Source: Marsupella aquatica (taxonomy: Eukaryota > Plantae > Marchantiophyta). From it: a stretch of DNA of 64,000 nucleotides. Numbering within the stretch: the first letter of the stretch is position 1; every line of letters begins with the position of its first letter. The stretch is from NCBI GenBank assembly GCA_973895155.1, contig OZ316895.1, positions 16,064,816 to 16,128,815 of the forward strand, read 5' to 3'. A program made the position numbers and the translations under genes. Under the pieces are notes generated by a model. It was not told the DNA's origin. It made no database searches and was given only the letters and a program-made list of their open reading frames with translations. Shown one piece after another: positions 3,183 through 45,099 of this stretch.

Positions 3183-3459
3183 TCGGAAGGTTCAATTCCA
3201 TGATCCCACATGGCATCCATCATGTGTGACAAAGAATGGGTTGTTTTGATGCATTTTGAGCAAGACTTTTTAAACCACCACTCGGGGTATAAAGCCCCCC
3301 ACCAGGCTGCCCGCACGTACGGGGCACTCTGCCCAGGTCAGGCAGAGTGTCGGGTGCCCTGGCATCACCCGGAGCTCACAGGGCCCAGCAGCGCTCCCCC
3401 CTCCCCGTAGCCCCCCTCCCAGCCCTAGCACTTGGGCAACAGCGGCCGCTGTTGCAAGG

Positions 3460-4080
3460 AGCCAAGACTGGCTGGCTGCCATAGCCAGCTGCGAGCACCA
3501 ACCTTGCTGCTACGAGATGCTGCTCAACTTGCTCGCCTCCTGCTCAACTTGCTCGCCTCCTGATTGCCGACATGCTGCCTTTGCTCCGAGCTCCCAAGAT
3601 TTCGTGGCTGCCATAGCCAGCTGCTCGCCTTCTCCTCGACCTGCTGCCAACCTCGCTCGCGACCTCGCTGCTGCTCAACATTGCTGCTGCTTGACGTCGC
3701 TCATGCTCGACCTCGCTGCTGCTCGACCTTGCTGCTGCTCGACCTCGCTGCTACTCGCCTGCTGCTCACTTGTTGCTCGACTCGCTGCCACCACTTTGAG
3801 CTTCCAATACTTCGTTTCCACCATAGCCAGCTGCTCGCCTGCTGCTTGACTCGATGCCAACCTCGTCGCTCCCCTGCTCCTCGCTCGCCTCTTTCAAGGC
3901 AGCGCTGCCAACCTTGCTACTTGCCTGCTGCTGAACTTGCTCGCCTACTGCTCGCTTGTCCTGACCTCATTGCTGCTCCGACCTTGTTGCTGCTCCCGAC
4001 CTCGCTGCCATAGCATGGGGAAACTAAGCTCGCCTTGCTGCCAAGCTTGCTATACTTTGTGACAGCCATAGCTTCTTGTT
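3460..4080. repeat. GC-rich low-complexity (CTG/CTCG) array with repeated CCATAGCCAGCTGC units
   Basis: Many CTCGACCTCGCTGCTG-like units; the overlapping ORFs are low complexity. Confidence 0.8.
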
Positions 4081-4467
4081 TGCTGATCGTTTTACGACTC
4101 ATTTCTCCTCATTGTTAGGTCTCAATTTCTCCTGATCACATCAACTCAAATCGTGGAGAGCAGAGCGTGTGCTGCCGTCTGTGAGCCTTGCTTGTGTTCA
4201 TTTGGATCTATTGTGGCCTAGGTGGAGTTCCCTTTCAATATACTCCTCGGATTTTGGCTGGAGTTGAGGCTGCGGTTTGCGCTTGTTGTTCTGCATTTCC
4301 CTCTGTTCTTGCAGCAATTCAATTGTGAGCATTTCAGGTCTTACTGCTGCAATTGGTGTTGTGGATTTGTGTTCGTCCCCCCTTGGATTTCAGTGGCAAG
4401 GTAGTGCAACCAGGAGTTCTGATCTTGGTGCTCGGATTTCGGCTGTGAGGTTTCTCTGAGGATTTCA

Positions 4468-5037
4468 TTGCACTGTGTTGCTGCCATTTCAGTTGTCGCA
4501 AGTGCTGTGAGCTTTTTTGGTGTTGATCCCGCTATATTTGCAGTGACAACAGGGTCTGATTTTCAATGTACCTTCTTTGCTAATGTTGGGCAAGAGCAGC
4601 AAGTGACATGTGAATGTGATTGGTTTTGTGTCAGGAAGATGGCGCCGACTAGAAAATTGAGAGCCATGTTGACTGAAAATGGCAATGGGATCTACAATTT
4701 GACCTGGCAGGATCCTAGTCATGTTGAGGGCACTCCACCTACTGTCCGGACTGTCACTGTGCAAGAGGTCCAGGCTGATTTTCCAGATTTTTGTACTGCA
4801 ATTACAGAGTGTCACAGTGATCTCAACCCTGTAGTCCCAATTGAACAGCTGATCATGTGCGCTGCATATAGTTATGTTGAAACTGTCATGAGAAGGAAGA
4901 GATACCAAGTCTACACTCACTTGGCCTACGTAGCAGGGTATTCCGAGAGAACTAAGTTTCCTGAACCGGTTGAAGCTTCTGTGAAAGCTACTTGGCATGA
5001 TGAAGGAGAGGAATTTGTAGGATTCCTTGCTAATTAG
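4468..5037 (+). CDS. KolX-like accessory protein (P2X7 intracellular/ballast-domain-like); true start uncertain, possible acceptor at 4542
   Basis: TCECDWFCVRKMAPT, CTAITECHSDLNP, RYQVY, and C-terminal ERTKFPEPVEASVKATW..GEEFVGF parallel the KolX pattern (CxCxxC..MPT; R..IPSCV...IR..FP...G.Y.GF). Convergent with the transposase. Confidence 0.6.
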   Translation: MHCVAAISVVASAVSFFGVDPAIFAVTTGSDFQCTFFANVGQEQQVTCECDWFCVRKMAPTRKLRAMLTENGNGIYNLTWQDPSHVEGTPPTVRTVTVQEVQADFPDFCTAITECHSDLNPVVPIEQLIMCAAYSYVETVMRRKRYQVYTHLAYVAGYSERTKFPEPVEASVKATWHDEGEEFVGFLAN

Positions 5038-6096
5038 GTATAGAGAGACTTTTGCCACACTTCATGTTTATGTTTCAATGTTTGATATGACTAATAAAGC
5101 TGTTTGCAGAATACAACTCCTGCTGGTTGGCAGCATAAGGGGTTCAATTCCCCTTGGGAGTACATGTTACAAAAACACAAAAACATATTTGCATGAGAAG
5201 CACATTGTTCTATCTTGTTTACATGCACGGATGTATAATTATTATCTTTGTTTCTTCCTTCCCATTGCACTTCTCAAAGTTGGTAGTATATGCTACAGCA
5301 CAAGAAAGGTTCTGAGAGTCACTATCTATTGCAACTCTACTGTCTGAAGTACTATGCATGACCAAACAACTTTTATCACCAAACACTTTTATCACCAAAC
5401 ATTGTTTCACATTCAAACCGCAATATTCCTTGTAATGATGGCTCATTGGAGTCGGCACTCTGAAAATTTTGCTCATTGTAGTCTCTAAAATGAATCTCTG
5501 AAGTCTCTAAAATGGCACCCATTCAATTTGGCACATTTCTCTAAAATGGCACTCCAAAATATGGTTCCACCACAATAAACACTTCACATTTGTTTGACCA
5601 CTATAAGCATTACAACATGAGTCACAAAATAACACCAAAAAGCCAAAATAAAAATTGCCAATGTTCTTAGCTATCACATGAGAGTCGAAAGCTTCATCCA
5701 TAGCTCTTGCCTTGAGTCACAGTACTACTGGTGTGAGGTCATCATTTTTCTAATCAGGTCCCGGCCCTCCTCAAGAGAATCACCCCTACAACAATGACAA
5801 CCATTTTAGAGGAAGTTACACAATGACAACCATTTTACAGCAAAATGATACCTATTTCAATGAACTAATTTTATTGCTTATACTCACATGAAGTATGTTA
5901 GCCGAGGTCTTTTATGGAGGCCTGGCACCACTCCATAAGTACACTGATAGCTATGTTCACCACATGTCAACCCTCCTGCATAAAATCACCCACAAAATTG
6001 TACCTTATGATAATTGTCATCAACATCAATCTACCAATATGCTTACATTGCCACTTGTACAAAATATTTAGCTCATCTCATTACTTTACCTTGGCT

Positions 6097-9000
6097 CTAA
6101 GATGGAGGTGGCACTCCATAAATACGCTCACTCGTTCGGTCCTTCCAATTAGTGGTTCGGTCCACCAACACTCGTGTTCGACCAGGACGCTCTCTAATAG
6201 CAGTATTCACGGGCGTGCGATGGTAGACCTTCCACACATGTCGGCGGATATTCTCGTTCCAATCAAGGGCAGCACAACACAAGCGAGCCTCATGAGTAGC
6301 CGAGAAATGAATACGCTTGATGGCATACTTGCCCATCACAGAGTGATAGGTCTCCGACATGAAGTTCTCCCGAGCCATGGTATAAAACCTCATCTTGGAA
6401 GGAGTAATATACTTCTTCATGAACTTTTGCATGGCTAAGTGAGTCTCACCACCTGCATGCACAAAACCCACATTGTGAATCATGTGACCCAACAATAACA
6501 CCCAAATGATATTAGGACAACTATAGTAAGTAACATATATTGATTTGTACCTCGCTCATAATAACGGTCAACCTGGATGGCTCCAGGGTCTCCAAGATGC
6601 TGACAAGGTCTATCCGATAGTCTTGCACATAACGCATGATCGCCAGCCCAATGATCAGCGCAGTTTCCCAACTCAAAGGCCAACGACTCTGCATCTCCCC
6701 CACTGCCAAACAAAAAAATTGTCAAAACTCTATTATATATGCTACTAGACCTCAACCCATATTACAACATTTACACATAAAATGCAAAATCAAAGAAATC
6801 ACACAGTCCATGCATAAAACAATTCACATACCTGGTCCTACAGCGCCGACAACATACATAGAACCACGTCTTCAATTTGGTGGCCAAGTTATGCTGAGAC
6901 AACTCTGGATACTTTGGACCACGAGTCTGAATGTGTACTAGCTCCTCATCAGGTAACCCTCGCATGTCAGCAACTTTATGGACCAGGGCCTCCTTCCTGA
7001 GGGTTGAGTACCCTCTCACTCCTTTTGCCCTCAACCAATCCTGCAACCTTTTAGCAGTAACTGCTTGTAGCTCAGAATGAGAGGTGGCAGTATCGATGTC
7101 AATAGTAATAGTGTATGTCACACTCACCATCTTCTCAACAAACTTTTTGACCAAGTTCTTTGCCTTATGCCATAGGTCTTTCTGGTTCCTAATCCCCATA
7201 TCCTCCACAATAGTATCGATAGTGGATTTATCATCATGGATAACCTCTGTAATAGATATTCCTACCTCTCTCAAGCTATCCAATGCCTTTTTGGTACCCC
7301 TGTCCTCCATGTACCAGGCATTTCTCTCCTCTCGCCGAGTAATTGTCACCATCTCAATTACTCTATTATCTTCAGTGTTGAGGATAGAGGTGGTACCATG
7401 AAAACCACTCCGAGAAGAATCCCAACGAGTATCGAGATACACCACCAACCCTGGATCTGTGTCAAACCACACACAAGTACTAAGAATCAAAATTTACGAG
7501 AAATTGCATCATGATACTAGAAATCTATGACTGGTCTTCTAGGGGAACCAACTCACTAACCTGTCTCAGTCGTCCGTCGATACTGAAGCTGGTCCTTCAA
7601 CTGCTCCCATAGATGATTTTTGTCTTCCTTCCACTCTTGCTTCACAGCTGCTATCCATCCACCTTGGGGTCGCCCACGACCACTCTGAAAGTCATGCCAA
7701 TGACCCGCAGTAGGGACATGTAATCCTAGGTGCGAGGTAACAGAAGCCAAGGATGTGTAGGTCAATCCGGAGCAAAGGGTAGAATGATATAACTTGGGAG
7801 TAATCATGGGGGAACTCCTCCCTGGCTCATTGTCACCTGTAACAAAGGTCCAACCATGTCCATCCACACCACAACCAATACGAATTGACCATAACTGATG
7901 CAACTCCCTAACACGCTCAACTATCGGAGTCCTCAAACATCCATGTACATGACATCGAGGGAGTAGCCGATCAACAAACGTAACCAGCAAATGGCGATCA
8001 AAAAACTCTACTGTAGCTGGCCGACGGGGTGGTGCTCTACGAGTCGGCTGAGAGTCCGGAACTGGAGCCGGTTGAGAGTCCGGAACTGGAGTGGGCTGAG
8101 AGTCCGGAACTGGAGCTGGCTGAGAGTCCGGAACTAGAGTGGGCTGAGAGTCCAGAACTGGAGCCGACTGAGAGTCCGGAACTGCAATGGGCTGGGAGTC
8201 CAGAACTGGAGCCGAGTGAGATTCCGGAACGGGAGATGGCTGAATGTCCGGAATTGGAGATACCTCCTGATATAATAAATCCACAATCTATGTCAATAAT
8301 TATTTTTGAATTTTCTACAAAGTTGTTGAAAAGGTGATGGTCATGAAAGATCTCATACCTGAAAGGTATCCCCATCCACAATGTCCAAGGCCCCTAGAGC
8401 TGCAAGAGCAACTGGGTCATCATCTTGATAAAGAGCGTCATCCTCCGCATCTGAGGCATATTGCTCTGCAATATGTTCCTCCAAGACGTCATCCTCTACT
8501 CTATCTGAATCCCATGCCTCATGTTGGGCAGTCTGCAAATAGCACAAAGATGAAGTTTAGCAATGAATAGAACCCTAAAACTTTACTAAACCCTAAAGTT
8601 GTAAAGTACCAAATTATGAGCAACACCCATATGTTTGAGTTGTGAAAAATATTGTAGTAATAACATGCCTGGCATGATATATGACTGTGGTAACCCTAAA
8701 ACATATGAAATTTTTTTATTCATGTGTTGGGGTTTCTTACAACAAAACAAACCCTGACTTTGGCAAACCCTAAACTGTTGGTATTTATTAGTAATGACAT
8801 ATTTTCATGGATGTGAGTTAGGTGAGTATACAGGGGCTCATTACAAAACAGAATTATAACTTAGCAAAACTATGCTCAATTGTCATAATCCAAGCCTAAA
8901 CCATAAAAATGGTGAAATTGAAGAAAGGGGACTGTTGGCCGAAATAAAATAGTAACACATGGATACATATATGAATGACACCATAAAAGAGACAATTGTA

Positions 9001-9370
9001 CCTGAAGTGGTGGGTGTGAAGGCTGGTCACTGTTGTGCTCAGGTGCGGCTGGAGGTGCTTCGTCCCCCATCAATTGAGTGGCCTCCGCTATACGCCATTC
9101 ATGGAGTTCCTCAACCCCAGGTCGTGAGTGATCTAGTAACCATGTGACCACAGTAGAATGCGTGGTATCTGGTCCAAGCAAAGCTCTAAGGTCCTCCCAC
9201 TCATCCCACCGCTCAAGTGGGACCCGGATTTCTGGCTTGGCATCCGGTCTCCGTCTCTTCTTATAATCTATATCATCACTCGGATACCGTCGCCTGGGTG
9301 GACCACCCCCTCGTTGGGGACGTTTCCGCCTCCCATCCGGAAGATTGGGGGGGCGCGCCCCTGTGCTCAT
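6097..9370 (-). CDS. Kolobok-type DDE transposase, 6 exons, ~793 aa (exons 9370-9002, 8532-8359, 8266-7561, 7456-6832, 6702-6551, 6452-6097)
   Basis: Six ORF-track segments join at GT-AG introns with matching phases (0,0,1,2,1) into 2382 nt without a stop. Motifs: YLDTRWDSSRSG (D1), VIHDDK (D2), QKDLWHKAK (DxxH), NFMSETYHS (E), CAALDWNEN. These match Kolobok patterns recalled from memory (DGRCDSPG / TDRH / HQFDVWH / LESFHS / AALDHN). Confidence 0.8.
8044..8250 (-). repeat. 24-bp coding tandem repeat (PVPDSQPA-like, ~8 units) in transposase exon 3
   Basis: Repeated GCTGAGAGTCCGGAACTGGAG units on the + strand. Confidence 0.9.
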
Positions 9371-9447
9371 ACTGTCCTATCCTAACGCCAACCTCTAAAA
9401 TGTACCTAAAACCTAAAAATAAAAACCTACATATGAAAACTGGAGAC

Positions 9448-9572
9448 CGGATGCCAAGCCCAACCCGGCAAACAAATACAAAATTCTACAAAACAATGCA
9501 AAGTCAAAATCGGATGCCAAGCCCAACCCGGCAAACAAATACAAAATTCTACAAAACAATGCAAAGTCAAAA
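9448..9572. repeat. 63-bp tandem duplication upstream of the transposase
   Basis: CGGATGCCAAGCCCAACCCGGCAAACAAATACAAAATTCTACAAAACAATGCAAAGTCAAAA occurs twice. Confidence 0.95.
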
Positions 9573-9804
9573 AATGGAGAGGGAAGAAAAGGAAGGAGCA
9601 CTAGACCTTGTTGAACATGTGAAATATGGCACCCCAACACTTTCCCCCCTCCCTACTAAGACCTCCTCCTCCCTCCTGCTCTGCTCCCTCTTGCTCTGCT
9701 CTGCGCTCCCGATCACCTTGGCTGGAATAGAAACCCTAATCCCATGCTCTGGCCGCCACATTTTTGACCCCACACAGTGGACTTCCCCAAAAAATACAAC
9801 CACA

Positions 9805-9876
9805 TGCACTGTGGAGATTCGAACTCAGGACCTCCTGGGTGGGAGGCAGGGTTGTGAACCATCAAGCTAAGGAAAA
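9805..9876 (-). other. tRNA-like (Gly-like) sequence with Pol III A/B boxes; not a functional tRNA
   Basis: Minus strand reads TAGCTTGATGG (A box), CCTGCCTCCCACCCAGG (anticodon-like arm), GAGTTCGAATCTC (B box/T arm), GTGCA. The acceptor stem does not pair. Confidence 0.55.
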
Positions 9877-10729
9877 TCTTTGAATGAGAAGATCCCTCAA
9901 CTGTAAATGAACTAAAAAAATGCGCCTCAGCCTTGACCATTCCCTGTTCTCTCGGCAGGGCCCGTGTTGTCACCGCACCCTGCCTTCTTCCCTGGCACCC
10001 GACACTTTATAAGGCCAGGTGTCCCCTGCCCGGCCTGCCCGTAAATTTGAATTTCAAATTTACTTCCCCACCCAATCAGAAGCCCCCGTTTGTTATTCAC
10101 TATTTTCTCATTCATTTTTCATCATTTTCTAATGCGGATTTTTCTGGGACGTAGATCTCAGCGAGATCTTCAAAATGAGCCGTAGATCGCTGAGTTTCAT
10201 GGGCGGATGAGATTATGGTGAAGGCCGATCGGAGGGCTACCGATGGGCGCCCGTCCGCACTCGCGAGCGTCGAGTTTCTTCAGTGAGTACTCCGGGTCAC
10301 CCGGAGTACTTATATTACGAATTGTGGTTTAAAACTTACATGCATGGAGTAAAGGTTGAAATTTTCAAAATAGCATGGACATCATCACCTGATTGGCTGC
10401 TACTTGGATTTAATTAAGTTTCTAAGGATATCACAAAAAGTCGGGCAAAAAGTCAATATGTCGATCACTGTCATGTGATGGGGGTGCCTCAGAGAAGTTA
10501 GACCCTCAAGGATAGACTTTTGCAAAGCTCGAGATGGAATCTTAGCGTATGTTTCAACGCAATCCAAGTAACACGATTTACAACTTTTACAGAGTATTTT
10601 CACATAAATTTATACACTCTTGCCCATGTGACTCTATTCGGGTTTAATATTGGTAAACCTAGCTTAGAAGTGTTGATATACATGGACGCATAATGTTTTT
10701 GTAACAAGTGTATGAAAAGTCTAATATAG

Positions 10730-11235
10730 CATGCTATAGCATGCTCATCCTGGAACATGCTTGAGTTTTTGTCTTGTAGTGATTTGAAAAGAAATAAAAC
10801 TTGAGAACATAAGTAGAAGGATTGGTGCACAGTGACCAATGAAAAGTACAATCAAGGATGCTACAATGTGTGCACTTAATTCAATGAATGACACTCATTC
10901 CAATAAAAACCATAAACTTAGTAAAGAAATACATGAGGGAACCTAAGACACAATCAGAATTATTTCTCTCATTCATGAGAATGTTCAAGTGGTGAGAATG
11001 GTTCATTTTATCTCTAACAAAATCATAAATATTAAAATTTATAAGGGGGTTGCCAAAATAAGTTCAAAATACTGTAGAATCCTAGAAATTAAAGGGGTCC
11101 ATAAATTAATTAAAAATGTATATGATACACAGGTTGCCCCTTGATAAGGCACATTGAAATAAAAATATATGACACCAAAACTCTGAATAAGACAAAATCT
11201 GAAAGGTGGATCCATCATATAGCAGTTCCAAATAT
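10730..11235. repeat. Dispersed ~500-bp repeat family A (uninterrupted copy)
   Basis: TAGCATGCTCATCCTGGAACATGCTT, CAATAAAAACCATAAAC and GAATAAGACAAAATCTGAAA motifs recur at 29205-30530 and 30528-32445. Confidence 0.85.
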
Positions 11236-11252
11236 AATTTAACTATGAAAAG

Positions 11253-19620: not shown

Positions 19621-21879
19621 TCATTTGTCACCCACTCAAAATAGCAGGTCTCCCCCTGGCTTTTCTATTTTCTTCAAGAGATTTATTTGTTTATTATGGG
19701 GTTTGGTCAAGTTGAGGTGTGACAGTGGTGGTTTAAGGTCATTCAGGTCTGGTTGTATAATGTATATTAATGCAAGACCCGAATGACCCCCGGCAACACC
19801 AATTCAGGTCATTATAGCAAGCTTGAATGGGGGTCTCACTGTCTGGAGCTCCTCACATCACTTGTGACATTTTCAGGTCAAGTACACCCTAAACCTTAAG
19901 AAAACCAGTTTTCTTTAGCTGTTTTATCCGCTTAATGTGGACCGAATATTTCAAAACTTGCCTTTCAAAACCCCAGGCATTAAAGATCTTAAACAAATCA
20001 GTCTTTGGAAGTTTTCTTTCAGAGCCAGTAAAACAACTCTATGCTTTGTTGCACATGATATGCCATTTTTGCAAAAGTGAGACCCCCGAGATAGCAACTC
20101 ATTGTCATGTAAACAAGCTGGTAATGGTTGGGGCATTCAAGGTCACTCCCAATCCGGCCAGTGCAATGTAGTGATTAACTTTGTTACTTGGTCCATAGGA
20201 TTAGCAACTTATGTCTTTCCACATGTTCACCATTCTCTAGTTGTAAGTTTGTATTGTTGATGAAACATCAGACTAGTTTTTTAGCTGGGATGAACACTAG
20301 GTAACTTTCACACAATTGACACTGGTAAGCTGCCAATCATGGATTGGCTGCACAAACTTATTAAAGTCATCTTAGTCATTGGAATATGTTCTTTTACCAT
20401 TGTTGGGGACTCTCGAGCTTTTTGGCTCTTTGGCCTTCCTGGGTTTTTCCCTTGTTTTCCTCCTGCCAGCCTTCATTCATGTAGCCACTTGGAACTTGGC
20501 TACATCCTAGCCAAAGTGACCCAGAAGGTGACCTGCGGCCCCACCTGCGCCTCTCAGTGTCCCAGCCAGGATCCAAGAGCCAAAATCAAGAAGATATGAA
20601 AGATCGGAGAGAGGAGTAGAGTGATTGAGCAGAGCCCACTGAGGGGAGCCGACTAATGTGCAAGTGAGGGAGGGAGAGTGGAGAAGTGGCCTGTCTGATG
20701 CTTAAGTGGGAAGGAGGGATCGGAGTAACCATACAAGCTAGTGCTCAAGGGAGAACTGCGAGCAAGCAAGCTGGGAAATTTCCGCACATGAGTGGCTGCT
20801 CAGGTCTCACATGTTACATGGAGGCCCCCAAATCACCCACAATATTTTTAGATCTCAGACATCCTTATACTTAGGAATAAAACTAAGGTTTTTTATTTTT
20901 TACCCCTACTAATTTGGAATATCCACAAGTTTATTTGAAAACATTACCTTTTCTTTGAGCACAAAATAAAATTTAGAAACCCTAAGTAACGTTCTTCCAC
21001 AAAAAAATTTAAAATCTTCTCTTAAATCCAATAAAGTGACCTATGTTTCATTGTATAAGGTGTGTACGTTGTTTGTGCAAAAGTGAGACCACAAAAGCAG
21101 CTGGGCGACAGGCTCCACCCTGACATGAGTATTGATGCGGCAGTAGTTGGTGAGCAAAGGCCTTTGGTTTCTTTTCGTTTGGTTGCCTTCGCCACTTTCT
21201 TGAGTTTTTTGCTTTTGGGATCCTGTCTCCCTGTCAAGAGCTTATTGATCTTTTGCTTCTCTTGCCTCTTGGATCCTGTCTCCTCAACACATTCTTTGTT
21301 CTTTTTCTTTGGCAGTGTTTTATATATGATATATATATATATATATAAATACAAAAGTATATCGATACTAAAGTAGAGTCGTTGCATTAAAATATTCAAA
21401 TTCGATTTCATCAAAGAATCTTGTGATATGCCACATTAGGTTGTCCCTATTAACGTTGTCCATATTACCCTTGTCCTTATCGGGGTATGGACGCGTAATG
21501 GATGCTCTTGCTAACACATGTTTCATTTTTTGTCTCCCTTAATGACTTTAACAGCATCTTAGAAAGTTAGGTTTTTGATTTTAATTCTTAAATAATTATA
21601 TCGTTGTGACTTGCGAAAAGTATTTAGATTGGGTGTGTGGAGCAAAGCAACCTAAAAGTCAATGCTGTGGTGCATCACTTGTCCTTGTCCATTTATAATG
21701 AAATTTAATATTTATTGTGTAAAATTAGATAAGCTATGTCACTGAAGAAATATCACCTGAAAAGCTCATAAGGGATTTTCTGTAAAGGAAAGTCAGAACA
21801 AAAATATTTGTTATTATTATCAATACATAATAATTATGCAATATGCTACTAGTTTTTGTTGATGCTATCCCAAGATGAT

Positions 21880-30198: not shown

Positions 30199-30706
30199 TT
30201 CAATAAAAACCATAAACTTAGGGACGAAAGTCATGAGGGGAACTTAAGACACCATGTGTTCAGGTTTATTTAGAATCATTTTTCTCTCTCATGAGAAGAC
30301 TTAAAAACTTTGTTCAAGTGATAGAAATTAAATTCATTGAGATTAAAAATTGAGAGGGCTGCCACAATGAGTTCAAAATTCTCTAAGATAACAAAACTTA
30401 AAGGGGTTCAAAAATTAATTAAAATCTATGTAATACAAAGGATGCCCCTTGCTAAGGCACATTGAATTAAAAATACATGACAAAAAATTTATGAATAAGA
30501 CAAAATATGAAAAGTACATTCACCGTATAGCATGCTCATCCTGGAACATGCTTTATTTTTTGTCTTGTAGTGATCTGAAAATAAATAAAATATGAGAGCA
30601 TAGAAATGCTGTTATATAAGTAAAGTGCCCAAGAAAAGCACAGTGACCAAGAAAAGGAACAGTCAAACGATGCTACGATGTGTGACATGAATGAGCCACT
30701 TAACTC

Positions 30707-32076: not shown

Positions 32077-33692
32077 CACTTAACTCAGGGTGCCTTATGA
32101 ATGACCCGCCTTTCAATAAAAACCATAAACCTAGGAAAGAAAAACATGAGGAGAACTTAAGAGGCTATGCATTCATGTTCTTCAACATCATTTCTCCCAC
32201 TCGTGGTGGTGGAGCCTTTGGTTTCATCTCTAAGAAACTCTAAGAAAACACATACTGTGAAAGGGGGCTGCCAAAATAAGTTCAAAACATTCTAGAATAC
32301 CTAAAACTAAAGGGGTCTAAAAATTAATTAAAAATGTATAGAATACAAAGGCTGCCCCTTGATAAGGCAAATTGAATTGAAAATACATAACACAAAAATC
32401 TGAATAAGACAAAATCTGAAATGTGCATTCACCATTATAGCAGCTTCAACATATACATGACATCTCATGCAACATGAATCATTTTCCTAGGAGCATGCAA
32501 CAGTTGGACCAAGGGCTTTTGTCTACATGCACCCAACTACCGACCCCACACCCACTCTATACCCTTCACAAACATCCTACTCCTAATGTGGAATGGATGG
32601 GGAAATGGAACCTTAGACCATTTCCAATGCCCGGTGTCACTGGAGGTCAACCCCACTCAAGTATTTGGGGTCCAATGACTTGAGGGCAGCTTTGCAAGAC
32701 ATTGGGGGCAGTGTTCTCTTTTTCTGGTCTCCAAGATGTGATTGGGGCAGTCCATTTGGGAGACAGTATTTCAAGTCACTTTACAAAACGTACGTTCGGG
32801 CAGTTTTTTCCTAAACTGTTGCCATGCTACATGGAATGGAGTAGGGCCCAAGTTTTCTTCTGTGGACCTCAGTTTTGACCTAGATTTTAGACCACCTTTG
32901 TTGGAGTTATGTTTATCTGGCGCATTCTTATTTTATTTTCACATTTTGCACTAAAGTGGACCCAGAGGCCCCTTACATCAGACTTTTCTTGTCAGGGCAA
33001 GAAGGGCGCCAGCGAAAGGAGTATGTGACTTCTAAGGTGGAGTAGGTCTCCAACATGCCTTTTAGCAAATTACTCCAACCACTTGCGAATGGCCACCTTT
33101 TTGAACGGGGTTTGAACAAGCTTATTGAATAGGCACACCTGACCGGTTTAAGAAAATTGCTATTTTTGTGTATTTTGCACTTGCGGGAGGAAAAACCAAA
33201 ATACAGTCATTGCCTGATATATATTGGTTAAAAATACTATCGAATGTGTTCTTTGTCATTTGCACAAAGAGCAAAAAGATACCTGATAAAACTTGTTAAC
33301 TCTTGAAAATGCATTAAAATTACTGGATGGATAGTGAAGGGCTATGGGGTGGAGGCTAGGAGAGCTATGTGCTGGAGGCTGGAGGGCTATGGGGTAGTGG
33401 AGGCCGAGAGCTATGGGGGGTACTGTCCTGTTGGCAAGAGAGCTATGGGATGGAAGGAATAGTCAATTTTATGTAATATAACTTTATAAGACCAGATTTT
33501 TATTTTTGGGGGTATCAGTCCTCTTTGTTTGGGAAACATTGATTCTTCGAGGGTTGTAGGTATAGCCAATCGGGTGGTGGGCACAATGACCGGAAGGATA
33601 GCTAAGGCAATACACATACTTTTTACAGAAAAAGGCCAAATAGAGTACAAAAGAATAAACAAGAGAGGTCCCAAGTGGACAAAACCAAACGC

Positions 33693-33843: not shown

Positions 33844-36800
33844 CTAGTGGTCTACATCAAGTGTCGAAACTAGATCGGCAAGTGGGACAGGAATGTCCTC
33901 GAGGGGGGCTAGCCGCTGCGGAGTCACACTAGCACCCACTGTCAGAGATCGACGATAGACGGCCCGAGCTTGAGCATGTTGTAAGGTGACTGAAATGCGT
34001 TGGCGAAAGTGCGTGGTCAAAACAGATAGCGGGGGCCCGGTGGGACCCATCCGACCGTGAACATCCCGAGCAGCTTGGCGAAGAAGCCCGTCGAACTGAT
34101 GATGGAGACGCCCAAATATCTCAAGAGCAAGGGGCAGGAAGCTATCAGATGAAGCTAGTGCAGCATATTTGGCCTCCTTCGTTGTTGCTGCTCGTGATGC
34201 TGCTGCCCCTGCCGTTGTTGCCGCTGTCCCAATGATGTCTTGGCGCAATGGGTTTGCCACCACTACATCTGCCAAAGTACGGTGACCGTCACGGACCATG
34301 GTAAGATCCACCCGTAACCGTTGTGATGGAGGACCAGGTAACTCGAGCACCACCTCCCGCCGCGCGTAGACCAAAGAGCCAGAGAGAACCTGAGCAGTCG
34401 CATCTCTCACAGCGTCGTGAACAAAAATGGTTTCGCCGCCCAAACTGCATCAAAGAAGATGGACACCTGTGGCATCACAAGGCTTCCCACAAGTGCAAGT
34501 AGGAGGTAAACCAGCAAGAAGTGGGTGGGGCAAGCCCATACGAAGACGCATGGCTGTCGCAAACTCCGCTGAAGACATCCGCAGGTGATGAATGACTGGA
34601 TTAGCCTGAAGCCAGCCTCCTGCGCCCTTCCCTCCGGAAGAAAGAATCCGAGCTCGGTCCGTGTCAGGTGCCTCGGTGAGGATGCTGGAAAGGGTGAAAG
34701 CGTGCATACGCCCAGCAAGGTCTGCCTGAAGACGGACGGGGTCCAAGGATAAAAACTCCTGGAATGAAGGTAACGCAGCTCGAATAGGATCGGGTAATGA
34801 TGACCGCGCCGTGCGCAAATGAACCTGAAATGGGAGGGAACCCTCCTCAACCTCCATGAGAGATGAAAGTAAAAAAGGTCGATCCTCAGTAAGGAAACGA
34901 TCTGCCAACAATGAGAAGGCGGCCCACGCGCCCAAGAAGGCCAAAGGTGCAAGGCGCTCAGTGGAAGTAAGCCCAAAACCACCGTGAGAAATAGGAAGAC
35001 TGAGCTGTCGATGAAGCCACGGAGATGAGAGTAAAGTACCTGGCCCTAAAAGAGAGGCCAAAGTCTCACGAATGGAGACATCAAACGCTTGGAGGTGTAG
35101 ATAAAGATCCTCGGTAGGGGGATGTGTCCGAGCCAAATAGGACGCACGAGGGTGGATGCATCTCAACAACAACCCAAATGCTGCCTGAGAGTCTGCCAAC
35201 TTAGGGAGCATAGGAGTAGGGGCTAAGGCAGCCTGGAGAGCATCAGCAATGAAAGATGAGCAAAAGGAGGTGGTACCGACTGGGGAGCCAAGGACCCGAA
35301 GACCGTCGGCAGGACGTAAGAACCCAGGGGGAAGCGCAAGATCAGAGGGTAACCCAGCTGGACTCCATGCACGACTCTTCACCGGCTGAACTCGTAAACC
35401 GAGGCCCAACAAATGGGTGGAAAGGGTGGCGAGGGCAGAAGTAACAGCAACAGGTGGACCAATGATGTGGGTGTCATCTGAAAGGGAGGGGAAGATACAC
35501 TGGGGGTGGGCCGCGGAGGCTTCTCGTAAAGTAGTAAAATGGGCAATGGCAAAAAGAGGCCCACCCAAAGGGTCACCCTGACGTGTACCTTCTGCAGAAG
35601 AAAGAGTGGTATACACTCCTGTAGAGGTGTGATGACTATAGAAGAGGGGGGCCTCGAACCCATAAAAACAACGGACAAAGGGGATAAGGGACTGGATGTC
35701 TGGATCCGCTGCCCTCAAAGCACGAAAAATTGCTGCCCGAGAAACCGTATTGAAAGCATTGGAGACATCAACCTGGAGGACAACCCAATCAGGGTGGAGG
35801 TCCAAGGTAGTACGAATACCCGCAATAACTGTCTCACAACTGCCAGGAACGCCCACTGCAAACTGATGTGGAGAGAGATGATCCGATAGTGCAGAGCGAT
35901 ACTGCGATGAAAGTGCGCGAGACACCAGACGAAGAAAAACCTCTCCAATAGCTATGGGCCGAACACCCGGTGAAGACTTAGCCATGGCCAATAAACGAGA
36001 AGCACTCAAAAGCCGAGAGACGGGAGGAGGTAAACGGCCGGTAGCAATACACTGGCAAAGGGAGAAAAAAACTGGAAAACCAGACTGAGGATCCTCAGGG
36101 GGGAATAAATCACGAAAATGCTCAAAGACATAGCCAGAGGGGCCACCAGCCGTGCAACGCGGAGCATGGAGGAAAGCATAGGTGAAGTGGTCCCTACTAA
36201 ACTGAAGATCCTCCTCAGGCTCAAAATCCTCCACGAACAAAGGGAGCTGATCATAGGGCTGCGGATGGAGATCCTGAAGGGCCGTCAAGGTGACCTCGCC
36301 AGGGGGGGCTGGTGTGGTGGGAGATAGGGCCTGGACTGCACGACGATATTCACCAGCCTGGGCTAAACGACAAGAGCGACGAAGGCGTCTGTGCTCTGGA
36401 GGATGAGAGTGGCAAGCTGGGTCAGACAAAGCACGGGTAGTAAAGGAACGGGCTCGAAGAAAGTACTCTTCCTGAAGCTGTTCCCAATCTCCCCGCAGAA
36501 AACGATGGATACGAGAGGCAGTCTCACGATGACCCACGCGACCACCGTGACTAGGGAGGGTAAGAGTCCACTGTGGAAAAAGCATGAGTAAAGACCAATA
36601 GGAGACCTCGATAGGATGCGCCAAGATAAGCTGCATGAGTTGCAACAAGGATGACCGAACTAATGGGCGCAACGCTAGTGGGATGTGGTTATAAAGGCGA
36701 GGTCTAATGTACCCTGGATGGTAGGCTGGAAGGGGGTCTAGAGAGCGAACCCAACTCCATGCCTGCTCGGAAGCCTCCAAGGAAGGAGGGGCAGAGCTAA

Positions 36801-37636
36801 CTGGGTCAAGAGGGGGCTGGGATTGGGCTTGCTAGCGACGTTGGCACCGGCCCCGCCCACGGTGATGAGGAAGGGAGAGGCCAACCCAACCACACTCAGG
36901 ACAAGTATGCAGGGGACGCTCGTCTGGGGAGGGAGCAGGGAACGACTGGACCGGAGGTGGGGGGCGGAACCGACGTGGATGAAGAGGCCGGAGGGGGATG
37001 CTGGAGGGGTGGAGGGGGAATGGGCTGGGGAGAGGAGCCAGGGCGTCGATGGGGTGGGCAGTAGACTAGGGGGACTGGTAGAACATCGGGCATGGGGTCA
37101 TCACGAAGATGAGAGAGATCCAATGAAGAAGAGCAAACACGAAGGCGACCACGAGGCGGGGGGGAGGAGGGGGGAGAACTGTGTGGGGGGGCTGGGCACT
37201 TGCCCCGCGCCAACACTCTCAACGTAGACATGACAGGTCGCAACCCGATAAAAGCAAAAGCGCATCAAGAAGCGACAAAAGGCCCAACCAAGACATGTGA
37301 AAAGAAAGGGAAGGCTATGGAGAGAGCCCACCGCGTCAAAATCCGAGAAGCGGCGCCACCGCTAGCCTAGAAAACCGTTGAGCACGTGCAGGCACAGCCG
37401 GGAACAAAGCTGGAACTCTCGTCGATGTGTCCGTTGAGGTGTCGATGCGAGTGAATATCTCTCCGCTGATTTGAGCGTGCTGCGACAGCTCCCAAAGATG
37501 GTGGAATGCAAACTGGTCCACTAAACTTGGCAAAAACCACCTTGTCAGAACTGAAGAAGAAAGGCAACCACCAATCAGAGGAGAAACGTGGCAAGACAGG
37601 AATGCTCCAAAGCTGATCAAGGGAAACCGTCACCAA
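33844..37636 (-). pseudogene. RT-RLE polyprotein of the CRE-like element, disrupted
   Basis: The 776-aa and 199-aa ORFs are in the same frame, separated by one TGA (34450-34452). Further stops and frameshifts lie in the Pro-rich/Cys-His N-terminal part. Confidence 0.85.
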
Positions 37637-40398: not shown

Positions 40399-43300
40399 AT
40401 GGCGGGTGTGGTGAAATTGCACTGCATCCCGCCCCTCCATGCAATTCCAGCTCGAAGCAGAAGGCAGCAAGAGCAGGGAACTCGACCCGCGGCGACGATG
40501 ACGACGGGCACCGATCTCTCGCCACATATCCGAATCACGCAGCTGTTCCGCAGCAGCAGCAGTAGCGCACCATCGCCATCGTCACAGGGAAGAGCACCGT
40601 TCCGGCATTCAATTTCCTCACCATGGCGCGGCCGAATGAAGCAACAGCAGCCGGATAATTTCGCAGCTTTGCGGGTGTTCGCTGCGAAAGGGAACGTGAG
40701 GCAGAAGCAGCAGAAAGCGAAACCCGCTCCTCCTCCGCTGACATCCCAGAATAGGATTGGAATTCCTCCTTCCGCCCCTTCTCTTGCGGACCGCGACCTC
40801 TCGTCGCAGGAGGAGAAGGAGATCTCTGCACCGCCTGTGAGAAGCAGCACTATAGCCGAAGTAGTCCCTCCCAGCAACGAGAGGGAAAATATGGCGTCGA
40901 AGGGGCCTGTTTCGGGTGGGAATGGAGTTTTGTCCTCCTCGTTTGCTCGCATTATGTGGAGGGGCACATTACGACGCATCTCGTCGCTCCGGCTCGCCAT
41001 CGCAGAACTCGTTGTCATCGCTGGTCTTTCTGCTCTAGGTACAGAGTCCAGTACACTCTATCATTTAACTTGTCTTTCGAATTCTTTGCCACGTCCGTGT
41101 TGCTTTGCGGTTGCTCTTCCTCTGCAACTTTTGTTCAGCATTCTCGTGTCATCCGCGGCATTCTCGTCCTGAGGTCCTCTTGGTTTGCGGTGCGGAACAG
41201 GGACGATAATCGAGCAGAATGAGAGTCCACAATTTTATTTCGATAGTTATCCCGAAGAGAATCCGATGTTTGGATTTTTGACATGGCGGGTGATCCTTGG
41301 AGGCAGCCTGGACCACATTTACACGTCGTGGTATTATCTAGGCTTGCTGCTCCTGCTGGCTGCGTCCTTGATCGCCTGCAGTACGACCAGACAATTCCCT
41401 ATTGTGAAAGTCGCGAAAAGGTTCTCTTACAACATTCATTTTTGAAGCTGAAACCTCATCTTCAATCGTGTGAGCAATTGGTTTTGTCTGCCAAGGTATC
41501 TTAAAAATTGCTTAGATTTTCTCACTCGAGGAGAGATGGGTTTAAGCTGACGTGAATTCTAACCTTGCAGATGGTCGTTTTTTAAATCCTCGGCTGCCTT
41601 TGATAAATTGCCGGTATCGGAAACGCTTGAAAAGGCTAGGCTTGGCGATTTCGCTACATTACTTATGGCGGAGGGATTTGAGGTATAACCTTCGTCTACA
41701 TTGTACACAATTCTATTTTTTCAGCTGAATTTCTACTACAACAGTGATGACTTCCAAGAATTTTCACCCTACAGTGCAAACTGTCACAAGATGGAAATTC
41801 TAAGAGGAGCGCAATGCCATCAAAGAAAAAGCAAAGGTTGAACATCTATCGAACTGTACAGTAGTATCCGAGATTTTGACGACTGTTTGGATGCACAGGT
41901 CTTTGCCAAAGGTCCTACTCTCTATGCTTTCAAAGGTCTGGCTGGGAGATATGCTCCCATTGGTGTACATATAGCTCTGCTGCTGATAATGGGTGGGGCC
42001 ACCGTTAGTGCAATTGGAGGGTATCACGGCACTGTCATGGTTCCGCAAGGTCTAGGCTTTCAAGTTGGTGATATTATGGCAGCAAAGGGTTTTCTGTCCC
42101 TGCCATCTCCTGTTATTAACTTTCAAGTGCAGATTAACAAGTTCTTCATTGACTACCTTGATACTGGGGCTGTATGTATCTGTCCCCCTCTCTGAGTTTC
42201 TACTGAAGATGTTTATAATAGCTCCAGTTAGTGGTAAGGACTTGGGTGAAGTTCTAAAGAATCAAATGTCTAATAATTTTCTGTTCGAAACTACGAATGT
42301 TCTCGAAACAAGGGGCAGCAATTTGTAATGTACGCAGGATTCATTGTAAGTGGAGCATGTCACTGACAATTATCTAATCATGGGAATTGTGGCAATAGAG
42401 ACAGACCTAGGAAGGGAATTGTTGCTCACCTAGATTCCCCATGTGCAGGTTGCCCAATTTCATTCCGATATTTCTATTCTGGACAGAAGAGACAACGAAG
42501 TATTTAGGAAGACCATATCTGTAAACGATCCTCTTAGATATGCTGGGCTCACGATGTATCAGACCGACTGGGCAATAGCTGCTGTCCAAGTGCGGGTAGA
42601 TGGATCGGAACCTTACAATCTTGTTATGGCTTCCTTGGAGAAAGGGGACAAGAAGCTCTTCGGTACTTTCTTGCCACTAGGATCGGATGGTTTGGAAAAG
42701 GCAAAAGGAATGTAAGCATCTCACACCTATTGTTCACCACGCTTGTTTCTGCTTAAGCATAATCAAGTAGAGGGTGTTTTCCCGGTCTTGCTTTTTAACT
42801 ATAGCTCTAAGCCAAAATCACTTTCTCTGCTTAGTCCAAAGTTTGGACATTATGGAGAATATCCCCCATAACTCGCACTGCGTGTGACACTTCCTACCTA
42901 TAGCAATTTTTACAGGAAGTTTCGGAGCATTGTACTTGGCCTTGATATGGTGACGTTATTCTTGGGCTGAAGTTCGAGTTCTTCTGTTGTATTCCTGCAG
43001 TTCAATTCTTGCTCGCGATTTACAGTCTGTGGTAATCTATGACCAGGAGGGCAAATTTGTAGGGGTCAGGCGCCCAGGCTCCGCTAAACCAATTGTTGTT
43101 GATGGGGTCAGCATTGTGGTGGATGATTTGATCGGCAGTTCTGGCTTAGAGTTAAAGGTTTGACCTCTAACTCAGTTTGCTAATTAACGGTAGTGCTCAA
43201 ATTATCACATTCAGCTTTATCTTGTGTCATCTCACCTTTTTCCGGCTGCAACCCTAGCCAAGGTTTCTTTGTCAATTAATTTTTTCTCGTTGTTCGGACT

Positions 43301-43839
43301 GAATGTGTGTCATCACAGATGGATCCCGGCGTTCCCGTCGTCTACACTGGCTTTGGAGCTTTAATGCTCACAAGCTGCATCAGCTATCTCTCTCATTCAC
43401 AAGTACGTGATTCTCTGAACGAAATGAATAATACCGTTAGTTTGTCATTCTTGGGCTGTCATAGATCGGTCTGTTGTAGCTTGTTGCTTTGCGTATTTGG
43501 GAAAGACGTGAGCACTGTTCAACTCCAACCTTGTGCCAAGATGATATAGACTGCCATGTTGATGTGTTTGTTTCTGCATTTTGCACGGGCTTGACCAAAA
43601 GGTTGGCATCGTTGTAGGTGTGGGCTCTACAAAATGGCACTAGTTTGTTAGTTGGAGGCAAAGCCAACAGGGCAAAGGTTGAATTTGAAACGCAGCTTAA
43701 TAAAATTCTAGATTTGGTCCCCGAAGTAAATATTGTTTCTGCACCGGAGCAGCTTCTTGAGAAGCAGAGCAGCAATGGAGTACCCATCAGGGCTACGGAG
43801 GAAGAAACATCTAGAGTAGGGAACGTTCGAAGTAGGTGA
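40399..43839 (+). CDS. CCS1: Cytochrome c biogenesis protein CCS1, chloroplastic (ResB family); exons 40399-41038, 41201-41420, 41571-41682, 41899-42171, 42449-42711, 43001-43157, 43319-43402, 43618-43839
   Basis: SSLRLAI..SALGTIIEQ, LDHIYTSWYYL, KGLAGRYAPIGVHIALL, QFHSD..TISVNDPLRY..YQTDW, DPGVPVVYTGF, GGKANRAK; transit-peptide-like N-terminus; GT-AG introns in phase. Confidence 0.95.
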
Positions 43840-44775
43840 CCTCCATATCCTTAAAACCGTATCAGTTCCATCTGGGACCACGAATAGTGTTTCTAAACCT
43901 AGCGGCTGAGACATCTTTCTCAGGGTGTGCACCCACAGCCAAAGGTCATTCAGGGTGGTGGGATAAATCATGTGAGTAAAATTTGAACATGAATGATCTC
44001 CACAACCCATGTAACAATAGTAGGAACAGTCAGTACATAGGTACTTTTAAAAGTGTAAGATGATGTAAGGAGAAAGGTGAGAAGTGAGAAGTGATAGCAA
44101 CGATATTGCATTTTACGAGAGAGTGGTCAAACCATGAAAGAGGGCGAGGCAACTTGCCTAAGCAATCTTGGTTAGTTTCACTCCCTGTCCACAGTGTGCA
44201 TGATTACGATGTACTCCGCCATTAATTATTCGACAGTCATTTCCAGTCAATTGAATGTAAAGAAACCGCTGTATGGTTACAAAGTGATCGGGGGAAGGGT
44301 CACTGGTGATCCCTTCGAAACACGACCAGATTGGCTGTATAGGCAGGTGTGAAGTGGTCAAAACCTACATTTTCATAAACTTAGTCTCATGATCCGATGG
44401 ACCATGATTTGTATTCCCATTGTTTCAAACGCAGATTGTATGATTACAGCTAAGAACACATGTGCTCTTCTTGAAAGCAGTCCCAACAGGGAAACAGTGG
44501 GAGATTGGGGGCACTACCCTTCCTGTTTTGTTAATAGTTCATGTTCATATGTGCACGAACTACGCAGATGAGGGCAAGCAACATGACGTGATAAAATAAG
44601 CAGTAATCTCTGTCATCGCTGCTTGAGAGAGATGAAGTACTTGACGGGAAGTGGCACGTCCCAACAGGTCCGAGTTCGGTAACGACATTTTTGGACATCG
44701 CTGAGAATATTCTTAGCAAGGGGCAAGAAAATAACCTCAATTTCGTAGAACTTGTTGTACTTCTCGAGCATCGAC

Positions 44776-45099
44776 ATGACTAATGATTCAAATTCGGAGC
44801 CCAAAGTGGCACCCAGCACCACATGGCGACTGCAATCCCTCAGGCCTGTACCTGAGGCAATTCAATGGGGTATTGCAGGTGGTATCTACACTGTCGCGAA
44901 GGCGGGCTCTCAAAGGTTGCGAGGAGCTGATGATTGGAAAAATGCAACTGTTGGTGGAGCCGTGGCAGGAACGGGCTACGCACTCATTGACCCCACCACC
45001 AGATATGATCGCCGGCTTGTTCTTAAGAGTACAATTAGTGGTGCTTTTATCGCCCTTGCCGGCGAGATCTTACATCACATGGTCAAATCTTATAAATGA
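44776..45099 (+). CDS. OEP16/Tim17-family-like membrane protein, short and intronless
   Basis: QWGIAGGIY..RLRGADDWKNATVGGAVAG..KSTISGAFIALAGE resembles OEP16 helices 2-4; the first helix is apparently absent. Confidence 0.7.
   Translation: MTNDSNSEPKVAPSTTWRLQSLRPVPEAIQWGIAGGIYTVAKAGSQRLRGADDWKNATVGGAVAGTGYALIDPTTRYDRRLVLKSTISGAFIALAGEILHHMVKSYK

What the first reader, a model, noticed from the sequence alone, without database searches (positions are those of the whole stretch)
4468..9370. Apparently intact Kolobok-like transposon (spliced DDE transposase plus convergent KolX/P2X7-ballast-like gene) in a land plant
Seen: six exons splice in phase into an uninterrupted ~793-aa protein with D-D-(DxxH)-E motifs, and it faces a Cys-rich ORF ending in ...FVGF. 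Known: Kol0 Kolobok elements encode a DDE transposase and KolX in convergent orientation and are described mainly from animals, fungi and protists. Inference: this is a plant Kolobok lineage with host-style introns, either recently active or domesticated, because it is intact among decayed repeats. I am not aware of a land-plant description but cannot check the literature.
Basis: partly seen in the sequence, partly recalled or inferred. Interest (0 to 1): 0.9.

Follow-up and report, generated by a model that had tools for sequence, protein, structure and literature searches.

The report
Liverwort Kolobok transposon with TCP-like domain
This is an intact-looking 7-kb two-gene jumping gene, repeated in the genome of a green plant (likely a liverwort), of a kind that our searches did not find described in land plants, and its cutting enzyme begins with a domain that weakly resembles the DNA-binding domain of TCP plant growth regulators, whose ancestor is unknown and may be such an element.

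Summary
Observation largely confirmed. Six GT-AG exons give a stop-free 793-aa DDE transposase (D425, D491, DxxH 510-513, E709) facing a second gene. The element is wider than reported: TTAA|ACCAC (3270) to GTGGT|TTAA (10332), and public contigs show diverged copies with the same borders, so it is a repeat family, not a tamed single gene. Structure look-alikes are Kolobok-type clusters. Named relatives come from liverworts (Calypogeia, Riccia), Chara and Closterium; in Calypogeia both genes sit together at two loci. Corrections: the second protein is 132 aa from ATG 4639, is not Cys-rich, lacks the zinc ballast motif and resembles only the KolX tail (by eye); TTAA duplication and RR..YY ends cannot both hold, so it is not classical Kol0. 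New: a SAP domain inserted in the catalytic core, and no THAP but an N-terminal ribbon-helix-helix-like domain whose best match is the plant TCP domain (E about 1e-3; E 0.4 in a stricter control). TCP's ancestor is reported as unfound, so this is a testable lead, not a result. The scan noted Kolobok elements before in animals and diatoms, none in plants. Repbase and RNA could not be checked.

The parts
3270..3273 (.). Left TTAA, candidate target-site duplication (TA at 3271-3272 or TTTAAA at 3269-3274 fit equally)
   Evidence: Sequence; a single-copy flank contig of run X2 ends at 3298, i.e. shared sequence begins at 3269 if words are 31 long (inference)
3274..10328 (.). Whole element, about 7.06 kb
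   Evidence: Inverted ends 3268-3292 / 10310-10334, 80% complementary; contig depth step at both borders in 4 of 4 runs
3274..3292 (+). Left imperfect terminal inverted repeat, perfect over only ACCAC
   Evidence: the 9-nt match with TTAA is not significant alone (262 of 1000 controls)
3288..3293 (+). TATAAA facing inward, candidate promoter of the small gene (inferred)
   Evidence: consensus match only
3346..3358 (+). 13-bp subterminal motif mirrored near the right end, candidate transposase or factor site (inferred)
   Evidence: Longest word shared by the two ends; 3 of 1000 controls reach it
4639..5037 (+). Small gene, 132 aa; C-terminal 47 aa resemble the KolX tail, no zinc-binding cysteines; splice-acceptor-like sequence just before the ATG
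   Evidence: 11 homologs at 47-67% identity, alignment; by-eye match to Data S6 of PMC9587614; no Pfam/PDB match
6097..6452 (-). Transposase exon 6, with catalytic E709 (6352-6354) and stop
6551..6702 (-). Transposase exon 5, H-x4-H-x2-C-x7-C zinc-finger motif (6603-6653)
   Evidence: H642 82 of 86, H647 75 of 85, C650 78 of 84, C658 57 of 81 homologs
6832..7456 (-). Transposase exon 4: D425 (7431-7433), D491 (7233-7235), D510-x-x-H513 (7167-7178)
   Evidence: 30-45% identical to 6 Riccia proteins
6966..7079 (-). SAP-like domain inserted between DxxH and the zinc finger (about aa 543-580)
   Evidence: Pfam SAP hits in homologs, up to 28 bits, above cut-off; Ku70 SAP E 0.0036; present in all 12 rows of alignment A5, degraded in one; the window's own exon gave no SAP hit
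7561..8266 (-). Transposase exon 3: 24-bp tandem repeat (8017-8280) in an acidic linker, then C-x4-C...C-x4-H finger (7856-7954)
8359..8532 (-). Transposase exon 2, acidic, least supported exon
   Evidence: only 2 homolog alignments span its 3' join
9002..9370 (-). Transposase exon 1 with start codon
   Evidence: 49% identical over 121 aa to a Calypogeia protein that starts at the same place
9095..9301 (-). Conserved N-terminal domain (aa 24-92), ribbon-helix-helix-like, best family match TCP
   Evidence: the window's own copy has no Pfam hit
9994..10006 (-). Right copy of the 13-bp subterminal motif, next to an inward-facing TATAAA (10006-10011)
10310..10328 (-). Right imperfect terminal inverted repeat
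10329..10332 (.). Right TTAA, candidate target-site duplication
   Evidence: Sequence; X2 flank contig starts at 10304, i.e. shared sequence ends at 10333 (inference)

Best explanation
The 7.06-kb stretch is an intact-looking copy of a repeated two-gene DNA element that is likely a cut-and-paste transposon of the Kolobok superfamily, from a lineage found in streptophyte algae and liverworts, and likely not a tamed host gene. Shown: exon structure, catalytic residues, borders, diverged copies, linkage of the two genes in Calypogeia. Inferred mechanism: two inward-facing promoters would drive the convergent genes; the spliced transposase would dimerise and grip the element's ends or the 13-bp subterminal motif through its N-terminal ribbon-helix-helix/TCP-like domain, which stands where animal Kolobok has THAP; the DDE core would cut at the ends and insert at TTAA within a T-TTAA-A site; the inserted SAP domain would add non-specific DNA grip; the 132-aa protein is likely a zinc-less remnant of the KolX accessory protein, role untested.
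For: Stop-free splice model and conserved D-D-DxxH-E. Atlas structure search of a Riccia homolog: TM 0.58-0.70 over 250-298 residues to eukaryotic clusters, seven of eight carrying PF20700, with THAP (Cnidaria), lambda-type exonuclease, DEDDh exonuclease or parabasalid taxa, the accessory domains that PMC9587614 lists for Kolobok lineages. By-eye motif match to that paper's Data S5, including the zinc finger between DxxH and E that it says MuDR, P and hAT lack. Contig depth falls from 139-865 to 11-57 across the right border and is higher inside than on the left flank in 4 of 4 runs of 2 studies; contigs of all identity classes down to 88% were laid. 10 of 10 listed indels inside the element avoid the coding 39%. 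Calypogeia: CAM6082157 (small gene) and CAM6082159 (transposase N-half); CAM6099332 (small gene), 333 and 334 (transposase pieces, C-terminal piece nearer), each set on one contig length. Tree: window groups with Calypogeia 97/92 inside a liverwort set; Chara and Closterium form own clades. Host CCS1/ResB gene with introns and transit-peptide-like start.
Against: No direct profile or tree test against Repbase Kolobok, MuDR or P sequences was possible. PF20700 is named 'Mutator-like', most hits are below its cut-off, and one Chara homolog hits IS256 at E 1.8e-4. Termini read AC..GT if the duplication is TTAA, against the RR..YY rule. The terminal repeat is not significant alone. Summed contig depth is no copy number, and one run may be the source sample. 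Best-supported coding variants are 9 non-synonymous to 4 synonymous (13 of 36 listed in the element; only 40 of 778 rows shown), several apparently private to this copy, so it may already be drifting. Linkage rests on accession order, not on DNA read here; a third Calypogeia small gene and three other Calypogeia transposase pieces had no partner among the proteins looked up.
Confidence: 0.83

Rival explanations
1. A MULE/Mutator-type or otherwise unnamed superfamily element that only shares the C/DxxH signature with Kolobok.
For: Pfam label 'Mutator-like transposase'; UniRef name 'MULE transposase domain' for one Chara homolog; IS256 hit E 1.8e-4; termini break the RR..YY rule.
Against: No hit to classical MULE families in any scan; Kolobok-type architectures fill the structure search; zinc finger between DxxH and E; palindromic AT site rather than a 9-bp variable duplication at this copy.
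Confidence: 0.08
2. A domesticated host gene pair kept by selection, the ends being relics.
For: Open frame with five introns; plant-regulator-like N-terminal domain; SAP domain common in chromatin proteins.
Against: Diverged copies with shared borders; many fragmented paralogs in Riccia and Calypogeia; variants not skewed to synonymous.
Confidence: 0.06
3. The element is a Kolobok, but the TCP resemblance is only a generic ribbon-helix-helix likeness or chance, and the small gene is an unrelated passenger.
For: TCP E-value rises to 0.4 without three TCP-hitting members; N-terminal stretch alone of the best member scores 20.5 bits, below the cut-off of 23, and 7 of 9 stretches have no TCP hit; the same member hits RelB/DinJ at E 0.002; domain not detected in Chara or Closterium members above shuffled controls; small gene has no database match to the ballast.
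Against: TCP is the top hit in two libraries with an alignment chosen before TCP was suspected; the match spans the whole 55-aa domain with the D/N-x-H, IR-x-P, LG, S and AEPA positions in register; TCP beats bacterial RHH families in score.
Confidence: 0.38

Closest known systems
Kolobok superfamily, Kol0/Kolobok0 lineage (type Kolobok-1_XT; PMC9587614, PMC6004289)
   Same: DDE core with DxxH and the first zinc finger; no second CCHC finger; two genes; TTAA at both ends; small protein with a KolX-tail-like C-terminus.
   Different: No THAP; RHH/TCP-like N-terminus; SAP insertion (seen in none of the Data S5 rows read, parts 103-106); no ballast cysteines; termini AC..GT under a TTAA duplication; host lineage.
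Algal Kolobok families in Data S5 of PMC9587614 (Kolobok_1_MicRcc299, Kolobok_1_KlNi, Kolobok_1_CCri)
   Same: Same superfamily already in green and red algae; KlNi probably stands for the streptophyte Klebsormidium nitens (my reading of the abbreviation).
   Different: MicRcc299 and KlNi carry the second zinc finger after the first Asp, which this element lacks; CCri carries a RecQ helicase. By eye the core is nearer Kolobok_16_CGi, _1_OwFu, _1_NaeGru and _1_TV.
Cysteine-poor KolX-like proteins of piggyBac elements (Data S6 of PMC9587614)
   Same: C-terminal KolX-like stretch without most zinc ligands; by-eye register with 11 identities in 47 positions and one gap to piggyBac-2_GrCh_2p.
   Different: Here linked to a Kolobok-type transposase, with a predicted three-strand, three-helix N-terminal part that has no known match.
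TCP transcription-factor domain (PF03634; AtTCP15 7vp3/7vp6, OsPCF6 5zkt)
   Same: Strand-helix-helix layout, RHH-like fold (PMC9841405), positions in register over 55 aa; TCP arose in Phragmoplastophyta (PMC9480096), the group holding the named relatives.
   Different: First Arg of the RIR saddle is replaced, DRH reads NYH/DYH/DYK; fused to a transposase; scores are marginal; no TCP consensus site at the element's ends.

Membership tests
Kolobok superfamily | DDE transposase with C/DxxH between second D and E | tested here: met
   D425, D491, D510-x-x-H513, E709, conserved in homologs
Kolobok superfamily | Zinc finger between DxxH and catalytic E, absent from MuDR, P, hAT (PMC9587614 section 10) | tested here: met
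   H642, H647, C650, C658 (definition)
Kolobok superfamily | Transposase groups with Repbase Kolobok in a phylogeny | not testable with these tools
   Reference sequences could be read but not used as input; structure neighbours are Kolobok-type clusters
Kolobok superfamily | TTAA 4-bp target-site duplication | tested here: inconclusive
   TTAA at both ends, but TA and TTTAAA fit this single copy equally; no empty site or second full copy seen
Kolobok superfamily | Termini 5'-RR..YY-3' | tested here: inconclusive
   AC..GT with TTAA (not met), AA..TT with TA (met), CC..GG with TTTAAA (not met)
Kol0 lineage | N-terminal THAP domain (PMC6004289) | tested here: not met
   No THAP hit in the window exons or in any homolog scanned; a different conserved domain stands there
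Kol0 lineage | KolX with 7 zinc-binding cysteines (ballast fold) | tested here: not met
   3 Cys in 132 aa, 2 conserved; 0 of 12 members hit a P2X7/ballast family
Kol0 lineage | Second gene carried with the transposase | tested here: met
   Inside the ends here; adjacent accessions at two Calypogeia loci
KolX/ballast C-terminal tail | Sequence or fold match to the P2X7 tail | tested here: inconclusive
   By-eye match only; model unreliable over residues 83-132; no PDB match
MuDR/MULE | Variable 8-10-bp duplication and long terminal repeats (recalled) | tested here: not met
   Short imperfect ends and an AT palindrome at this copy
TCP domain (PF03634) | Score above Pfam cut-off over the domain | tested here: inconclusive
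   One homolog 28.7 bits whole, 20.5 bits for the domain alone (cut-off 23); 3 of 48 homologs hit; window copy does not
TCP domain (PF03634) | DRH loop and RIR/RVR saddle (PMC9841405) | tested here: not met
   His and second Arg kept in 30 and 29 of 33 rows, but DRH and first Arg are not; one Riccia member has DRH
TCP domain (PF03634) | Homodimer binding GGNCC-core DNA | not tested

The most novel reading that the evidence does not exclude
The plant TCP DNA-binding domain (TB1, CYCLOIDEA, PCF) was domesticated from the N-terminal end-binding domain of this streptophyte Kolobok lineage, which still jumps in liverworts and bridges bacterial ribbon-helix-helix proteins and TCP.
Probability: 0.27. 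Interest if true: 0.93.

Novelty: new variant of a known kind. Interest (0 to 1): 0.74.

Why it matters
It extends Kolobok transposons to land plants with a lineage that tracks Chara, Closterium and liverworts, sits in public proteomes under labels such as 'SAP domain-containing protein', and escapes Pfam cut-offs, so TE annotation would likely miss it. The domain swaps (RHH/TCP-like for THAP, SAP inside the core, zinc-less KolX) are a new architecture. If the TCP link holds, it gives a candidate answer to a stated open question: PMC9480096 found no ancestor of TCP genes in prokaryotic or eukaryotic genomes. That is directly testable by profile comparison, structure and DNA-binding assays. An intact liverwort-native cut-and-paste element could also be tried as a tagging tool.

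Tried and rejected
No genome is held for the window; no second copy inside the 64 kb. No RNA holder was listed, which says nothing on expression. Flanks of other copies and empty sites were not obtained, so the duplication length stays open. Related-locus scans found no confirmed locus: viral, metagenome, prokaryote genomes. Long Cys-rich reading of the plus ORF rejected. Small-protein searches without a meaningful match: PDB sequence, Pfam, PHROGs, Atlas (54, phage baseplate hits at low recognition, treated as noise), folds (77, 101; best Z 4.1). Transposase model was poor (pLDDT 51): Foldseek top hit Hermes at E 0.085, VIA best Z 5.7 for SAP domains; TCP structures were not listed in these fold searches, which were dominated by other domains. 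Single-sequence search of P0074 against PDB did not list TCP. Terminal repeat alone is within chance. TCP consensus sites GTGGNCC and GGNCCCAC are absent from the ends. N-terminal profile did not detect Chara or Closterium members (best -0.3 bits; shuffles reach 4.9), though three best placements fall at a plausible spot. Complex prediction for a homodimer was not available. Paper searches were uninformative (loose terms; wrong year). A ratio printed for SAP coverage used mismatched sets and is not used.
Full report
Gene model. Six minus-strand exons joined at five GT-AG introns give 793 aa without a stop. The joined protein aligns with a Riccia sorocarpa protein at 43% over residues 207-787 (E 6e-149) and with a Calypogeia fissa protein at 44% over residues 1-357. 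Joins 3-5 are crossed by 51, 68 and 70 of 161 fetched proteins, join 1 by 10 and join 2 by 2. In public contigs a diverged copy aligns from 7559, the intron-3 donor, and another skips 6706-6827, matching intron 4. No RNA was seen; no RNA holder was listed.

Ends and copy status. Inverted ends lie at 3268-3292 and 10310-10334: TTAA-ACCAC and GTGGT-TTAA. That 9-nt match is within chance (262 of 1000). Independent support comes (4 runs, 2 studies, contigs only): depth drops from 460, 139, 653, 865 in the last inner bin to 19, 11, 28, 57 outside, and in run X2 the single-copy flank contigs break where sequence shared with other copies would start at 3269 and end at 10333 (inference from 31-letter words). 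The tool warns that this depth is no copy number. All 10 listed indels inside the element avoid coding sequence (39% of it; 12 of 66 rows shown, 2 outside the element), while listed coding substitutions are 4 synonymous and 9 not (40 of 778 rows shown). A 13-bp word is mirrored at 3346 and 10006 (3 of 1000 controls), each end with an inward TATAAA. Because both flanks read TTTAAA, the duplication may be TA, TTAA or TTTAAA; TTAA and RR..YY cannot both hold.

Superfamily. The core has D425, D491, DxxH and E709 plus an H2C2 finger. PMC9587614 (read: main text parts 1-2 of 6, section 10, passages, supplement 2 part 7, supplement 3 parts 103-106 and passages) defines Kolobok by these features and lists accessory exonucleases. 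The Atlas structure search of a Riccia homolog returned eukaryotic clusters at TM 0.58-0.70 with THAP, lambda-type or DEDDh exonuclease partners, or parabasalid taxa. I read these as Kolobok lineages, so PF20700, although named Mutator-like, points to Kolobok here (inference). No tree with reference Kolobok or MuDR sequences could be made.

Range. A profile search gave 838 proteins at E up to 0.001, 150 listed. Of 26 transposase hits looked up by name, 5 were Riccia, 4 Calypogeia, 7 Chara braunii, 2 Closterium and 8 without a usable organism name; one of the last clusters with sequences labelled Pyramimonas and Prorocentrum, which may be real or contamination. The other 688 hits were not seen. 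In a tree of 31 rows the window groups with Calypogeia (97/92) within a 13-row set holding all named liverwort rows (93/91); Chara and Closterium form separate clades (midpoint-rooted, no outgroup). This fits old vertical descent but does not prove it. The window holds an intron-containing CCS1/ResB gene with a transit-peptide-like start, so the host is a green plant, likely a liverwort.

Small gene. Eleven homologs start near ATG 4639. In Calypogeia two lie next to transposase pieces by accession order, the transposase 3' part nearer. The protein lacks the ballast cysteines and matched nothing in Pfam, PDB or fold searches. Its last 47 residues match by eye the cysteine-poor KolX-like protein of a piggyBac in Data S6 (11 identities, one gap). 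I put KolX-tail homology at about 70%. PMC7016195 (passages) describes ballast domains from Metazoa.

New domains. A SAP-like domain is inserted after DxxH across the family; I saw no such insert in the Data S5 rows read. No THAP was found. A conserved domain at aa 24-92 (58 matches among fetched proteins) was modelled as strand-helix-helix and matched MatP, MazE and KacA at Z 4.3-5.0. An alignment chosen before TCP was suspected hit AtTCP15 first in PDB (E 0.0015) and PCF6 (E 1.2) and Pfam TCP in 2 of 10 members; 3 of 48 homologs hit TCP. Against this: without those three members E is 0.4, though TCP15 is still among only four hits with a full-length alignment; the best member's domain alone scores 20.5 bits, E 7e-4, under the cut-off, and the window's own copy has no hit; the same member hits RelB/DinJ; algal members were not detected. 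I put true homology at about 60%, direction open. PMC9841405 (passages) shows TCP is RHH-like and binds through DRH and RIR motifs, only partly kept here. PMC9480096 (passages) places TCP's origin in Phragmoplastophyta with no ancestor found; PMC6679135 and PMC5737466 (passages) placed it at land plants.

Novelty. Searches: kolobok+transposon (155 papers, 30 listed), +liverwort (1 review, listing only, 56), +plant genome (34, 30 listed, 57), +Marchantia (same review, 87), +KolX (1, 88), +Klebsormidium (0, 94), +moss+transposable (3, listing only, 105). None showed a described land-plant Kolobok family; a spinach paper names Kolobok only in an annotation tally (passage), and a 1007-genome plant survey screened for it without reporting it in the passages read (its supplements were not opened). 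PMC6004289 and bioRxiv 2021.09.26.461848 were seen as passages. Repbase and subscription journals were not searchable. No library search paired TCP with transposase; the four TCP-related papers read contain no word beginning 'transpos'. Earlier scan notes hold Kolobok elements in animals and diatoms, none in plants and none alike by sequence.

Verdict. A real, intact-looking member of an apparently undescribed streptophyte Kolobok lineage with a new domain set; not classical Kol0; with a moderately supported link to the TCP domain that deserves a direct test.

Noticed in passing
window 9234-9252 and 9442-9460: Perfect 19-nt inverted repeat with 189 nt between arms, straddling the transposase start codon; could fold the 5' end of the transcript.
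   Followed up: no
window 9433-9558: 63-bp tandem duplication upstream of the transposase ATG, containing one arm of the inverted repeat above.
   Followed up: no
window 3440-4050: C/T-rich 12-20-bp repeats inside the element's left arm, upstream of the small gene.
   Followed up: no
window 33847-36831 (-): Non-LTR retrotransposon-like reverse transcriptase ORF of 793 codons (RVT_1, E 1e-10) with a frame break before its C-terminal part.
   Followed up: partly
window 40400-43840 (+): Host CCS1/ResB-like plastid cytochrome c biogenesis gene with introns; nearby Tim17-family (44749-45096) and Per1-like (49604-51948, -) genes.
   Followed up: partly
window 10735-11240, 30199-30532, 32097-32455: Another, very abundant non-coding repeat family just right of the element, with two more copies in the window.
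   Followed up: no
proteins P0095, P0105 (Closterium clade): These transposases carry a further long low-complexity insert after the SAP domain.
   Followed up: no
protein P0036 cluster: An 891-aa relative with the SAP insert and RHH-like N-terminus clusters with sequences labelled Pyramimonas and Prorocentrum; wider algal range or contamination.
   Followed up: partly
window 19728-19736: A third match to the terminal 9-mer; no further similarity to the element, likely chance.
   Followed up: yes
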